A stretch of DNA of 64,000 nucleotides from Pseudomonadaceae bacterium (GTDB taxonomy: Bacteria > Pseudomonadota > Alphaproteobacteria > UBA2136 > UBA6156): contig JACKLD010000012.1 of assembly GCA_024236095.1 (NCBI GenBank), positions 149,695 to 213,694 on the forward strand. The letters run 5' to 3'. The number at the start of each line of letters is the position of its first letter. The stretch's first letter is position 1. Made by a program: the position numbers. This document shows, piece by piece, positions 48,001-51,000 of this stretch.

Positions 48001-51000
48001 TCCTCGGCCTGCTGCTGCTCGCCTTGCCAGATGTAATGGCTGCGGGTGCCGCCCTGCTGCACGCAGGCCGCCAAACGGTTTTGCAACAGCGTTTCGGTAA
48101 TGGCCTCGGCGCACTGTTGGCTATCGCAAGTGGTGAAGACAATCAGGTAACCGCTCATCCCATCACCCTCCACAACAGCAGGCCAAGACCAACCACCAAT
48201 GCCATCACCATGGCAAAGGCGTAATGGGCTACGTGACCGGTTTGGGTTTGGCGCAGGGCTTGGCCCGCCTGTTTGGTGGCATCGGCCGCACCGTTGACCA
48301 ACCCGTCAATCCCCTCTTGGTCGACAAAACGGTACAACCACCCCGCCAACACACGGGTGGGGCGCACCACCGCCAGGTCATACAGCTCATCCACGTACCA
48401 TTTGTTGAGGCTGATGGCGTAAGGAATGGCCAAAACCGATGCCAGTTTGCGCGGAATGTTGCGATACTCGGCAAACAGGTACCACGCCGCCGCAATGCCG
48501 CAAATCGCCAGCAACAGCGGCGCATATTTGGCGTAGGCGGGCGTATGGTGGGCGGCGTGCAAGGCATCATGGTGGTGGCTGATGACAATCGCGCCCTGCC
48601 ACCATTCCAACGTGCCCATGGGCGAGAGCAACAGCCCCGCCAGCACCGCACCTGCGGCCAATGGCATCATCGGCCCCAAAATCACCCACGGCGATTCATG
48701 GGCGTGGCTGCGCACCTTCTCATCGCCCATGAAGGCGCCCTCAAACGCCATGAACACGATGCGGAAACCGTAAATCGCCGTCAGCATCGCCGCCAGCGCA
48801 CCCACGTAATACACCGGCTGCGCCCAGCCGCCGGGAGCCATGAAGGCGCTTTCCAGAATCAAATCCTTGCTGAAAAACCCCGCAAACGGCGGAATCCCCG
48901 CCAGCGCCAAGCTGCCCAGCCACATGCACACGTAGGTGATGGGCAACACGGTTTTCAGGCCCCCCATGCGGAAGATGTTCTGCTCGTGGTGCATGGCGTG
49001 GATGACCGACCCCGCGCCCAAAAACAGCAACGCCTTGAAGAACGCGTGGGTGGTCAGGTGGAACATCGCCGCCGGATACGCCGACACGCCGATGGCAAAG
49101 AACATGTAGCCCAGCTGGCTGCAGGTAGAATAGGCGATGACCCGCTTGATATCGGTTTGCGTCAGCCCCACCGTGGCGGCAAAGATGGCCGTCAGCGCCC
49201 CCACATAGGCGACGATGTGCAACACGTCAGGCGTCAACTCATACAGCGGAGACAAACGGCACAGCAAAAACACCCCCGCCGTCACCATGGTGGCGGCGTG
49301 GATAAGCGCGGAGACAGGCGTCGGGCCTTCCATGGCATCCGGCAGCCAGGTGTGCAGGCCGAACTGGGCACTTTTGCCCATGGCGCCCACAAAGATAAGC
49401 AGTGCCGCCAGACTCAACGTGGAAACCTCATAGCCGAACAACGGCGTGACGGCATTCATCAGCGCTGCGGTATTGGCGCCCAACTGGCCGAAGATGTCGC
49501 CATACGTCAAACTACCGAACGTTTGCAGCAGCAAAAACAGCCCCACCAACATCGCTGCATCGGCCACGCGGTTGACGATGAAGGCTTTCATCGCAGCGGC
49601 ATTGGCGCTCTCTTTATGGTGCCAGAAACCAATCAGCAGGTAACTGCACACGCCCACGCCTTCCCAGCCCAGAAACATCTGTACAAGGTTGGGCGCGCTG
49701 ACCAACATCAGCATGGCAAAGGTAAAGGCCGACAGGTAAATGAAGAAGCGACGACGACTCGCATCCTCATGCATGTAACCGATAGAGTACACGTGCACGC
49801 ACGCGCTCACCGTGGCCACCACCACGTACATGGTGGCAGAAAGTTTGTCGGTCAACGCACCAAAGGTCACCTGCCACGGCCCGGCATTCAGCCACGTAAA
49901 CCAGTCCACATGACTTGCCGCCCCGCCCCCCAGCCACAGCGAGAGAAACACCGTCCACGCCAACACCGCTGCCAGCACCACGCTGCCGGTGGTGGTGGCC
50001 ATGGCGATGGTGTCTCGAATGTTCGAGTGTTCGAGTGTTCGAATGTTCGAGCGGCGCTTCGCGCCGGTGGGCCATAGGTATGTCAACGCTCCAGCCAATG
50101 CGCCGAGAAGCGGGAGGAGAATGAGAATGGTGGGGAGATGGGTCATGAATTAATCTACCTTCAATACCTGCCCAACCAAGAATGCAACAAGCTGCATTCT
50201 TGGATCATTCTTAGTTGGAAGTTCTTTAAAATCTTCAAAGATTTTCTCGTAGTCATATTTGTCTAGTTCTACGATAACAGTGTAGCCTTTCTTGCCATCT
50301 TTTCCATGAAACCTGTAAACATTATAGTTAACCTTCGGATAATTTGTGCACAGCTTATTAAATTGGAATACCCCCAGCATTACTTGGCTTATCGTAGGTT
50401 TTAATGTTGGTTTAGACAAACCCATTCCCTGCGTAACGAAAAAAAGATTCGCTTTTAAAAAAGGATTCAGTTTATCTTTATTGTTAATCAAATATCTTTT
50501 GTAGACATCTTCATCTGTTGTTATATTTTTTGGTATACTTTCAAATACTTCATTGTATGTAGTACACGCATACTGAATTGCGGGCTCAGATGTTGGCTCT
50601 AAGGAAGGCCGGTTAGCAGCACATCCAGCCAAGCCGATCATCATGATTCCAATTAGCATATTTTTCATTTTATTACCCCCTCATCCGATCAGCCGAATCA
50701 ATCTCAATATCCCCCCGGTTGCGGAAGAACAGGGTCACAATGGCAAGGCCGATGGCCAATTCAGCCGCCGCCACCGTCAGGATGAAGAAGGTGAAGATGT
50801 GGCCCGCCAAATCGGCGCGGAAGTGGCTGGTGGCCACCAAATTGATGTTGGCGGAAAGCAGGATGAGTTCCAGACACATCAAAATGGCGATGATGTTGCG
50901 GCGGTTGAGCACAATGCCCACCAACCCCAGCACCAGCAGAACGCTGGAAAGCGTGAGGATGTGCGTGAGGGTGATGCTATAGAACATGGCTACTTCTCCT

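What the first reader, a model, noticed from the sequence alone, without database searches (positions are those of the whole stretch)
50015..50054. Tandem octamer repeat inserted in frame near the N-terminus of NuoL
TCGARTGT x4 (plus a degenerate fifth unit) encodes ...RRSNIRTLEHSNIRDT... between the first predicted helix (MTHLPTILILLPLLGALAGAL) and the rest of NuoL. The same TCGAACA/TCGAGTG motif family occurs in the composite intergenic repeats at ~34030 and ~35550. A simple-sequence tract inside an essential complex I subunit could slip (8-bp units are not multiples of 3). That would make nuoL phase-variable, or at least length-polymorphic.
Basis: seen in the sequence. Interest (0 to 1): 0.6.

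Follow-up and report, generated by a model that had tools for sequence, protein, structure and literature searches.

The report
In-frame octamer array in NuoL loop
The 8-base repeat inside the complex I gene nuoL is real, but it looks like a fixed, translated loop insertion from a family of short repeat arrays found in many essential genes of this uncultured bacterial group, not an on/off switch.

Summary
The nuoL coding strand (window 48155..50146, minus) carries TCGAACAT TCGAACAC TCGAACAC TCGAACAT TCGAGACA. It is in frame and encodes RSNIRTLEHSNIRD between TM1 and TM2.

The phase-variation reading is not supported:
- The closest relative (80% aa identity) has the same insertion at the same site, with the same five units, already decayed by point substitutions.
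- The encoded stretch is a low-confidence coil in a loop that varies from 23 to 62 residues across homologues.
- Met49 has no ribosome-binding site and is a conserved TM2 residue.
- No other strain exists in the databases, so population-level length variation could not be tested.

The tract is one copy of a dispersed family. Two more TCGAACA arrays lie upstream of start codons in the window. Relatives carry 21 arrays of 4-5 units of 7 or 8 nt in about 66 kb, and 15 of these are read through in frame inside nuoG/L/M/N, birA and RNase J. The arrays are A+C-rich on the sense strand.

Arrays at orthologous sites carry different units in different genomes, which implies concerted evolution or replacement.

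The closest known analogues are cyanobacterial STRRs, Beggiatoa TAACTGA repeats, Xanthomonas GGGNATC repeats, and Rickettsia palindromic elements for the in-frame habit.

The parts
50011..50054 (-). Octamer tandem array. On the coding strand it reads TCGAACAT TCGAACAC TCGAACAC TCGAACAT TCGAGACA, and the + strand register TCGARTGT extends to 50054. It encodes RSNIRTLEHSNIRD (NuoL residues 33-46).
48155..50146 (-). nuoL, complex I subunit L, 663 aa. TM1 is residues 4-24, the coil loop is 25-41, TM2 is 42-71, and the beta-hairpin is 78-99.
   Evidence: AlphaFold2 model, mean pLDDT 88.5; the 31-40 block averages 54.
50053..50065 (-). GGCGCGAAGCGCC mini-hairpin (5-bp stem, GAA loop) directly 5' of the array on the coding strand. 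It is not conserved in the relative P0002.
   Evidence: DNA fold of 49990-50075: -17.1 kcal/mol, z -3.6.
50000..50002 (-). It has no SD upstream and is conserved as 'AM' at the start of TM2 in homologues.
34024..34060 (+). Intergenic array of the same family: TCGAACAT ACCAACA TCGAACAC TCGAACA TCGACAC. It ends 37 nt upstream of the ATG (34098) of a SurA-like gene.
35547..35582 (+). Intergenic array of the same family: TCGAACAT ACCAACA TCGACCAT TCGAACA TCGGCA. It ends 40 nt upstream of the ATG (35623) of a substrate-binding-protein gene.
33800..34097 (+). Copy 1 of the composite intergenic repeat that contains the array. It carries an extra REP-like palindrome inserted at about 33946-34004.
   Evidence: families D11, D18, D12; alignment A2, 81% column identity including the 72-nt insertion.
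35395..35622 (+). Copy 2 of the composite intergenic repeat. [quoted passage not shown]

Best explanation
The tract is a fixed, translated, in-frame insertion in the TM1-TM2 loop of NuoL. It is one copy of a dispersed family of short tandem arrays found in this uncultured alphaproteobacterial clade. These arrays have 4-5 units of 7 or 8 nt, span about 31-43 nt, and are A+C-rich on the sense strand. They lie just upstream of start codons and also inside coding sequences.

In genes, only copies that add a multiple of three bases, lack stops and land in tolerant surface loops survive. The A+C-rich strand encodes hydrophilic T/P/N/H/Q/S/K/R peptides that behave as disordered linkers.

The nuoL copy was already present before the window lineage split from its nearest known relative, and it has kept its five-unit length since then. 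In the window genome its units match the genome's other arrays (TCGAACA). In the relative they are TCCAACAC-like and decayed. Arrays therefore appear to be homogenised or overwritten within a genome. The most likely route is short-tract ectopic gene conversion between arrays of 30-40 nt, but this step is inferred.

The tract does not act as an on/off switch for nuoL.

Shown: the anatomy, the insertion status, orthology with the relative, the existence of the family, read-through in frame, and the orientation bias. Inferred: the cytoplasmic location of the loop, the neutral-linker role, and the homogenising mechanism.
For: 1. Insertion in a variable loop. The span from the invariant Pro12 to Thr52 is 41 residues here, against a median of 28 and a range of 23-62 in 47 homologues, with several unrelated inserts such as His-rich ones. 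The AlphaFold2 model shows coil at residues 25-41, with the 31-40 block averaging pLDDT 54, between helices 4-24 and 42-71. Paracoccus NuoL aligns only from query residue 43.

2. Orthologous insert in P0002. It has the same site, the same five units and a shared irregular fifth unit (TCGAGAC / TCCCGAC). Nucleotide identity in the tract is 67%, the same as the neighbouring N-terminal region (67-70%). The genes overall are 77% identical, with 61% identity at third codon positions.

3. Family within the window. There are three arrays in 64 kb, and 0 of 100 shuffles reach the observed motif count.

4. Family in relatives.
- The P0003 MAG has TCCAACAC TCCAACAC TCCAACAT TCCAACA TCGA as a 12-aa insertion (KSNTPTLQHSNI) in a NuoM loop.
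- The P0006 contig has period-8 arrays in nuoN and birA, and AACGCAA arrays in nuoG, nuoL (twice, one of them in the same TM1-TM2 loop) and RNase J.
- The P0012 contig has ten heptamer arrays in 22 kb, with the CACGAAT unit at five sites.
- In total there are 21 arrays, 15 of them inside CDS and all read through in frame.
- Codon-block shuffles give about 0 arrays.

5. Orientation. 24 of 25 arrays are A+C-rich on the sense strand, with a mean of 0.73 against 0.44-0.57 for the host genes.

6. Concerted change at orthologous sites.
- A NuoM loop carries (CACGAAT)x4 in L063 and (CACCAGT)x4 in L061, with nearly identical array-adjacent flanks.
- In nuoL, all five units differ at unit position 3 between the window and P0002 (p about 0.016).

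7. Literature. Dispersed heptamer arrays of about four units located near start codons are known in other phyla (PMC4679880, PMC4692102, PMC2670836). In-frame colonisation of genes by small repeats is known for Rickettsia palindromic elements (PMC10969869).
Against: - The family was sampled only around nuo operons of five relatives (about 66 kb) plus this 64-kb window. Genome-wide frequency and distribution are unknown.
- The window genome has only three arrays, and two of them lie within copies of a larger duplicated intergenic segment, so independent dispersal of the array module within this genome is not proven.
- At one site an 'empty' relative carries a single CACCAGT where another has (CACCAGT)x4. 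This hints that some arrays arise by local amplification rather than insertion.
- Concerted evolution implies some ongoing dynamics, so rare length change is not excluded.
- No population data were available.
- The membrane side of the loop and its neutrality are inferred, not measured.
Confidence: 0.7

Rival explanations
1. Contingency locus. Slipped-strand mispairing in the octamer tract switches nuoL, and therefore complex I, on and off, or produces length variants.
For: - The unit length is not a multiple of 3, and +/-1 or 2 units give premature stops after 80-131 codons.
- A published in-silico screen accepts three or more octanucleotide units in an ORF as potentially phase-variable (PMC7383803).
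- The units are more uniform here than in the relative, so some homogenising process is active.
Against: - The orthologous tract has the same five-unit length in a relative whose third codon positions are only 61% identical.
- In that relative the repeat has decayed, yet the loop is kept.
- Only 23 nt of the tract are perfectly periodic.
- There is no SD before Met49.
- The same paper notes that short tracts without inter-strain variation probably do not phase-vary.
- Sister genomes carry several such arrays in several essential genes at once. Random inactivation of all of these would be too costly for a switch role to be plausible.
- The gene class, core respiration, is atypical for contingency loci.
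Confidence: 0.06
2. The tract is a purely local microsatellite. It arose in place by replication slippage of a seed TCGAACA in the nuoL loop, and its resemblance to the intergenic arrays is coincidental.
For: - One orthologous 'empty' NuoM site in a relative contains a single copy of the heptamer that is amplified fourfold in another genome, so local amplification does happen in this clade.
- (TCGAACAY)n arrays occur sporadically in unrelated phyla: 53 stretches of DNA in unrelated genomes.
Against: - Stepwise growth by 8 nt would pass through out-of-frame intermediates in nuoL.
- The same unit occurs at three sites in the window, and in relatives one unit recurs at up to five sites in 6 kb.
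- The array ends are shared...AACAT(T)CGA in nuoL, in both intergenic copies, and in the NuoM array of another genome.
Confidence: 0.1
3. The array is kept for a nucleic-acid-level function. It could be a binding array for a protein (five TCGA cores spaced 8 bp apart) or an unstructured A+C-rich RNA segment that modulates translation. The peptide would be incidental.
For: - The intergenic arrays lie 0-40 nt upstream of start codons, often with no obvious SD. TAACTGA repeats in Beggiatoaceae are placed the same way, and a translational role was proposed for them (PMC4679880).
- The orientation bias also holds for intergenic copies, where translation cannot be the selecting force.
- The units in the window are better preserved than in P0002.
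Against: - The orthologous array in P0002 has lost the motif, with no TCGA cores left, while keeping the loop.
- The difference in decay between the two lineages is not significant: 6 versus 13 changes out of 40 from a perfect array, Fisher p = 0.11.
- There is no Rfam match anywhere in the window.
- No promoter-like site was found in the intergenic copies.
Confidence: 0.1

Closest known systems
STRR (short tandemly repeated repetitive) heptamer sequences of heterocystous cyanobacteria
   Same: Both are dispersed short tandem arrays of a genome-specific 7-nt unit, transcribed, near gene starts or between genes, with unknown function. STRRs can sit inside a functional gene, the RNase P RNA gene (Vioque 1997, cited in PMC2858038). 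The 7-bp description is in PMC2670836.
   Different: The phylum is different (an alphaproteobacterial MAG clade). The unit here is 8 nt, with 7 nt in sister genomes. Most sampled copies in relatives lie inside protein-coding genes and are translated.
TAACTGA direct repeats of marine Beggiatoaceae (MacGregor 2015, PMC4679880)
   Same: Sets of 2-6 heptamer copies, mostly a few nucleotides upstream of start codons where canonical RBSs are rare. A few lie within ORFs, and mobility is suspected but no mechanism is known.
   Different: TAACTGA gives stops in all forward frames, so intragenic copies are peripheral and rare. The arrays here are open on the sense strand and sit in internal loops of conserved essential proteins.
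GGGNATC repeats of Xanthomonas and Nostoc (Rehm et al. 2015, PMC4692102)
   Same: [quoted passage not shown] They lie within 50 bp upstream of ORFs with the C-rich strand as sense, and their length and sequence vary between related species.
   Different: Those repeats are G-quadruplex-forming and under-represented in coding regions. The arrays here have no G-tracts and are frequent in coding regions.
Rickettsia palindromic elements (RPEs)
   Same: Small dispersed repeats inserted in frame into unrelated housekeeping genes, adding a peptide at sites compatible with the fold (PMC10969869).
   Different: RPEs are palindromic elements of about 100-150 bp. Here the element is a 31-43-nt tandem array. 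As far as I recall (not checked here), orthologous RPEs diverge by ordinary descent, whereas orthologous arrays here carry different units in different genomes.
Simple-sequence-repeat contingency loci (phase variation)
   Same: A tandem tract with a unit length not divisible by 3 lies near the 5' end of an ORF.
   Different: There is no evidence of unit-number variation, the tract is short and imperfect, it lies in a core respiratory gene, and the same length is kept in a diverged relative.

Membership tests
SSR contingency (phase-variable) locus | A tandem tract in an ORF or promoter whose unit length is not a multiple of three, so that gain or loss of a unit shifts the frame | tested here: met
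   The unit is 8 nt. Simulated +/-1 or 2 units give stops after 80-131 codons, and +/-3 units stay in frame.
SSR contingency (phase-variable) locus | Repeat number varies between strains or within a population | not testable with these tools
   The 90% protein cluster has a single member, and no other strain was found. The only comparison possible is with the orthologous tract in P0002, which has the same five units. No read data were available.
SSR contingency (phase-variable) locus | A tract long and perfect enough for frequent slippage | tested here: inconclusive
   The tract has four good units, but only 23 nt (2.9 units) are perfectly periodic. It passes the permissive in-silico cut-off of three or more octanucleotide units in PMC7383803, but that paper doubts that such short tracts actually vary.
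SSR contingency (phase-variable) locus | An expression state is restored after a frame shift, by an alternative start or by reversible switching of a dispensable gene | tested here: not met
   Met49 has no SD upstream and is a conserved TM2 residue. TM1 is conserved across homologues, with Pro12 invariant.
Dispersed short hepta/octamer tandem arrays (STRR-like) | Tandem array of a 7-nt (here 7-8-nt) unit with few copies, typically 2-6 | tested here: met
   Period 8 with 5.1 copies. Relatives have 4-5 units of 7 or 8 nt.
Dispersed short hepta/octamer tandem arrays (STRR-like) | Several copies with the same unit at different loci of one genome, in excess of chance | tested here: met
   There are three loci in the window, and 0 of 100 shuffles reach the observed motif count. 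The CACGAAT unit occurs at five loci and AACGCAA at four in relatives, with about 0 arrays in shuffles. Caveat: the two intergenic window copies lie within a larger duplicated segment.
Dispersed short hepta/octamer tandem arrays (STRR-like) | Mostly intergenic, close to start codons | tested here: inconclusive
   Two of three window copies and 6 of 21 copies in relatives are intergenic, ending 0-40 nt before a start codon. The majority sampled (15 of 21) are intragenic, but sampling was restricted to gene-dense nuo regions.
Rickettsia-palindromic-element-like in-frame selfish inserts | A dispersed repeat inserted in frame into conserved proteins at structurally tolerant sites | tested here: met
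   Examples are the NuoL loop, NuoM loops, NuoN and BirA, and other NuoL loops in relatives.
Rickettsia-palindromic-element-like in-frame selfish inserts | A palindromic element of about 100-150 bp encoding a conserved peptide | tested here: not met
   The element is a 40-nt direct tandem array. It shows only weak hairpin potential, which comes from the TCGA cores.

The most novel reading that the evidence does not exclude
The arrays may be a distinct kind of genomic element. They would be short A+C-rich hepta/octamer arrays that are actively written or overwritten with a genome-specific unit. This could happen by ectopic short-tract gene conversion or by some templated synthesis. The arrays would colonise both 5' leaders and surface loops of essential proteins.

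The key signature is that orthologous arrays keep their position and length while all their units change together between genomes:
- CACGAAT versus CACCAGT in a NuoM loop.
- TCGAACAY versus TCCAACAC in the NuoL loop.

If this is right, complex I subunits in this clade record a running repeat-turnover process that has not been described for protein-coding genes.
Probability: 0.3. Interest if true: 0.7.

Novelty: new variant of a known kind. Interest (0 to 1): 0.5.

Why it matters
The single tract on its own is a modest curiosity, a tolerated loop insertion. Its context matters more, for three reasons.

- A whole clade of uncultured alphaproteobacteria carries many 7/8-nt tandem arrays that are read through in frame inside core genes (nuoG, L, M, N, birA, RNase J). 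Short non-triplet repeats can therefore be a regular source of new protein loops, not only of frameshift switches.
- The unit-wide differences between orthologous arrays give a directly testable case of concerted evolution of very short dispersed repeats.
- Annotators should take note. Pipelines that flag every non-triplet SSR in an ORF as a phase-variable gene would mislabel these essential genes.

Tried and rejected
- **Search for other strains or variants of the tract.** The 90% protein cluster of NuoL has one member. Exact look-ups of NuoL, NuoK and the upstream ORF found no contig. A metagenome scan with the 5' flank plus the first unit found nothing.
- **Logan contig from SRR12358675.** It is 100% identical to window 2479-4989, so the strain is in that run, but the nuoL region could not be retrieved.
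- **Protein search with the first 100 residues of NuoL.** It returned nothing, not even the protein itself, so one search was wasted.
- **Genome scan for (TCGAACAY)x3.** It gave 53 stretches of DNA in unrelated phyla, many at contig ends, and none from this clade. This was not informative about origin. The window's own MAG is evidently not in that collection.
- **Metagenome scan for the intergenic 20-mer TTCGAACATACCAACATCGA.** No hits.
- **Assembly artefact.** Rejected. The tract is 40 nt, in frame, and has an orthologue in an independent assembly.
- **True start at Met49, with the tract in a 5' UTR.** Rejected. TM1 is conserved across homologues and the frame is kept through the tract in both lineages.
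- **CcrM (GANTC) sites in the tract.** None are present by inspection.
- **Known RNA family.** None anywhere in the window.
- **Sigma-70-like promoter in the intergenic copies.** None.
- **Selection keeping the window tract more perfect than the P0002 tract.** Not significant (Fisher p = 0.11).
- **P0139 NuoM second loop as a decayed period-8 array.** The signal is weak (20 of 32 matches in an A/C-only stretch, by hand), so this is left as inconclusive.
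Full report
**1. The observation**

The + strand at 50015-50054 reads TCGAATGT TCGAGTGT TCGAGTGT TCGAATGT TCGAGCGG. Tandem Repeats Finder reports 50010-50051 with period 8, 5.1 copies and score 61. On the minus strand the tract is TCGAACAT TCGAACAC TCGAACAC TCGAACAT TCGAGACA.

It lies at nt 97-136 of the 663-aa ORF 48155..50146 (-), starts at codon position 1, and encodes RSNIRTLEHSNIRD. The ORF is NuoL:
- It is identical to NCBI MCP5404816.1 from a MAG contig of 505,967 bp.
- It has the Proton_antipo_N/M and NADH5_C domains.
- Its best solved relative is Paracoccus NuoL.

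The motif TCGAACAYTCGAACA with up to 3 mismatches has 11 hits against 1.9 expected, and 0 of 100 shuffles reach that number. Apart from one isolated 3-mismatch hit at 27345, they fall in three places: nuoL, 34016-34053 and 35539-35576.

**2. Where the tract sits in the protein**

An AlphaFold2 model built on 47 homologues (mean pLDDT 88.5) gives helix 4-24 (TM1), coil 25-41, helix 42-71 (TM2) and a beta-hairpin at 78-99. The 31-40 block has a mean pLDDT of 54.

In solved complex I structures, the beta-hairpin elements of the antiporter-like subunits lie on the periplasmic side. This is my own knowledge of the E. coli and Thermus membrane-domain structures. The TM1-TM2 loop is therefore on the cytoplasmic side. 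Its net positive charge (K30, R31, R32, R36, R44 against E39, D45) agrees with that. The location is inferred, not measured.

The loop is an indel hot spot. The span from invariant Pro12 to Thr52 is 41 residues here, against a median of 28 and a range of 23-62 in 47 homologues. Unrelated inserts, such as His-rich ones, occur in other lineages.

**3. Test of the phase-variation idea**

Adding or removing one or two units gives stops after 80-131 codons, while three units stay in frame. The proposed rescue start, Met49, has no Shine-Dalgarno sequence upstream and is the conserved 'AM' that opens TM2 in homologues. TM1 itself is conserved, with Pro12 invariant, so the frame through the tract has to be kept.

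The closest relative is P0002: 80% aa identity, a Logan assembly of SRR30202056, locus L001. It has an insert at the same site that reads TCCAACAC TCCGACAG TCCACCAC TCTACCAC TCCCGACC and encodes RSNTPTVHHSTTPD. Several points follow:
- The two tracts share the five-unit length and the irregular fifth unit.
- The only length difference nearby is a 6-nt indel outside the array.
- The two genes are 77% identical in nucleotides, with only 61% identity at third codon positions.
- The tract is 67% identical, like its neighbouring regions at 67-70%.

The insert is therefore old, has decayed by substitution in one lineage, and has not changed in unit number. The next relatives (P0003 at 77%, P0004 at 71%) lack it.

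A published screen would flag any ORF with three or more octanucleotide units as potentially phase-variable. The same paper notes that short tracts without variation between strains probably do not switch (PMC7383803).

No second strain exists in the collections, so population-level heterogeneity could not be examined.

**4. The tract is a member of a family**

The two intergenic arrays in the window read TCGAACAT ACCAACA TCGAACAC TCGAACA TCGACAC and a close variant. [quoted passage not shown]

Scanning the DNA fetched around the nuoL genes of relatives showed that such arrays are a feature of the clade.
- **P0003 MAG (GCA_049297695.1).** nuoM contains TCCAACAC TCCAACAC TCCAACAT TCCAACA TCGA, a clean 12-aa insertion (KSNTPTLQHSNI) compared with the window and other NuoM proteins. 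Its 3' end (AACATCGA) matches that of the window's intergenic arrays.
- **P0006 contig (L064).** There are period-8 arrays in nuoN and birA, both insertions relative to homologues. AACGCAA heptamer arrays occur in nuoG, in nuoL twice (one of them in the same TM1-TM2 loop) and in RNase J.
- **P0012 contig (GCA_016125035.1, L063).** There are ten heptamer arrays in 22 kb. The unit CACGAAT/AACGAAT occurs at five sites: two intergenic, plus nuoL, nuoM and nuoN.

Overall, 21 arrays with at least four units and at least 80% periodic matches were found in about 66 kb. Fifteen lie inside genes and all of those are read through in frame. Codon-block shuffles give essentially none. Unrelated control loci carry 3.1 heptamer arrays per 100 kb, against 10.7 in the clade.

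Twenty-four of 25 arrays are A+C-rich on the sense strand, with a mean of 0.73 against 0.44-0.57 for the host genes. The intergenic arrays end 0-40 nt before a start codon. The A+C-rich strand encodes T/P/N/H/Q/S/K/R-rich peptides. The complementary strand would give hydrophobic or Cys-rich peptides and, for several units, stop codons. Selection can therefore explain the orientation inside genes. The same bias in intergenic copies needs another cause.

**5. Concerted change at orthologous sites**

In one NuoM loop, L063 has (CACGAAT)x4 and L061 has (CACCAGT)x4. The array-adjacent flanks are nearly identical (GGGCGCAGCCC upstream and CGCCCC downstream), and the number of units is the same. Every unit differs at the same two positions, and nothing else in the array differs.

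In nuoL, all five units differ at unit position 3 between the window (G) and P0002 (C, C, C, T, C). Given 13 differences in 40 sites, the chance that one unit position differs in all five units is about 0.016. Within a genome, by contrast, arrays at different loci share the unit.

This pattern is the reverse of simple descent. It points to homogenisation or overwriting within a genome. Arrays of 30-40 nt are about the minimal length for RecA-dependent exchange, so short-tract ectopic gene conversion is the most economical mechanism. That is inference.

One 'empty' relative carries a single CACCAGT at the NuoM site, so local amplification may seed some arrays.

**6. Comparison with known systems**

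Dispersed heptamer arrays with a preference for about four units and a position near start codons are known in three systems:
- Cyanobacterial STRRs, described as 7-bp repeats of unknown function in PMC2670836. They are also present inside the RNase P RNA gene according to Vioque 1997, cited in PMC2858038.
- TAACTGA repeats of Beggiatoaceae (PMC4679880).
- GGGNATC repeats of Xanthomonas and Nostoc (PMC4692102).

All of these are described as mostly intergenic or under-represented in coding regions. Frequent in-frame insertion of small repeats into housekeeping genes is known for Rickettsia palindromic elements (PMC10969869), but those are palindromic and 100-150 bp long.

The present case combines the two: tandem 7/8-nt arrays that are commonly translated within essential proteins. 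I found no description of this in the searched literature. That is a limited search, not proof of absence.

**7. Verdict**

The phase-variation interpretation is not supported, although it has not been formally excluded at the population level. The tract is best explained as an old, tolerated, translated loop insertion belonging to a dispersed STRR-like array family that shows signs of within-genome homogenisation.

I rate it a new variant of a known kind, with interest 0.5. Most of that interest comes from the clade-wide context rather than from the nuoL tract itself.

Noticed in passing
window 33965, 36868, 46268, 51014, 51350, 52039, 52079, 53721, 54125, 56400, 56749 (26-nt cores): A REP-like palindrome, GTCATYCCNGCGNAGGCNGGRAYCCA, occurs 11 times in 64 kb where 0 are expected. 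Some copies fit the ATTCCC-N8-GGGAAT form, which from memory resembles Neisseria dRS3. Several lie in the gaps of the nuo operon. Copies also occur in relatives L001 (3) and L062 (1).
   Followed up: partly
window 36423..37319 (+), REP at 36868-36893: The REP-like element sits in frame inside rsmA/ksgA and encodes ...[15 protein letters not shown].... Alignment to solved RsmA structures splits at query residues 137/165 against chain residues 138/142, which indicates an insertion of about 24 aa. This is a second kind of repeat read through in a conserved gene of this genome.
   Followed up: partly
window 51053..51337, 53779..54069, 56433..56723 (all minus strand): Three small GIY-YIG nuclease ORFs (Pfam PF01541, E 1e-13 to 2e-17) are each bracketed by an inverted pair of the REP-like palindrome (51014/51350, 53721/54125, 56400/56749). 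All lie in or next to the nuo operon. The layout is reminiscent of REP/RAYT 'REPtrons', but with a GIY-YIG gene. A GIY-YIG ORF also lies in the nuo operon of relative L064 (5960-6253).
   Followed up: partly
window 50150..50668 (-): A low-GC ORF of 172 aa (33-37% GC against about 60% for the window) with a lipoprotein-like signal (MKNMLIGIMMIGLAGC) lies between nuoK and nuoL. Its stop codon is 3 nt before the nuoL ATG. It has no Pfam match and looks like a recent foreign insertion into the operon.
   Followed up: partly
window 46240..46420 (3' end of nuoM, minus strand): The C-terminal tail of NuoM contains a perfect 30-nt tandem duplication (46320-46383, encoding MDMWRAPVEA twice). It then reads through a REP-like element (46268-46293...VIPAQAGTQ...) before the stop.
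   Followed up: no
window 33946-34004 within intergenic repeat copy 1: Compared with copy 2, copy 1 has an extra REP-like element. It is flanked by similar short hairpin-forming sequences (CACGGCCAAAGGCCGT ... CACGCCGAAGGCGT), which could be a target-site duplication.
   Followed up: no
window about 21560-24400 (+): A long internally repetitive coding region has a period of about 276-303 nt, with ten or more copies of a motif encoding ...VTINVLANDTD.... It looks like a large repeat-domain surface protein.
   Followed up: no
L063 12919-12957 and L061 1428-1474 (nuoM of two relatives): These are orthologous arrays with nearly identical array-adjacent flanks (GGGCGCAGCCC upstream, CGCCCC downstream) but different units, (CACGAAT)x4 against (CACCAGT)x4. 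They give the clearest case of concerted change. The 'empty' site in L062 holds a single CACCAGT.
   Followed up: partly
L062, L063, L064 and the window (nuo operons): In the window and three of its relatives, the nuo operon is interrupted by unrelated small genes between most nuo genes. These include cutA, GNAT, S51 peptidase, a hydrolase, NUDIX, PRA-PH and GIY-YIG. From memory, Paracoccus and Rhodobacter nuo clusters also contain interspersed URFs.
   Followed up: no
whole window; NCBI label of MCP5404816.1: The source MAG is labelled 'Pseudomonadaceae bacterium'. However, the nearest NuoL and NuoM relatives are Alphaproteobacteria MAGs, more distant ones are Magnetococcales, and the best solved match is Paracoccus. 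The taxonomic label looks wrong.
   Followed up: partly
L060 (Logan SRR12358675) against window 2479-4989: An independent Logan contig is 100% identical over 2,511 nt, so this strain is present in that public run. The run could be used for read-level checks of the tract.
   Followed up: partly
L062 10753-10793: A different octamer array, (TAGGATAC)x4, abuts the start codon of an M24 peptidase gene on the opposite strand in the P0003 MAG. More than one unit family can therefore coexist in a genome.
   Followed up: no
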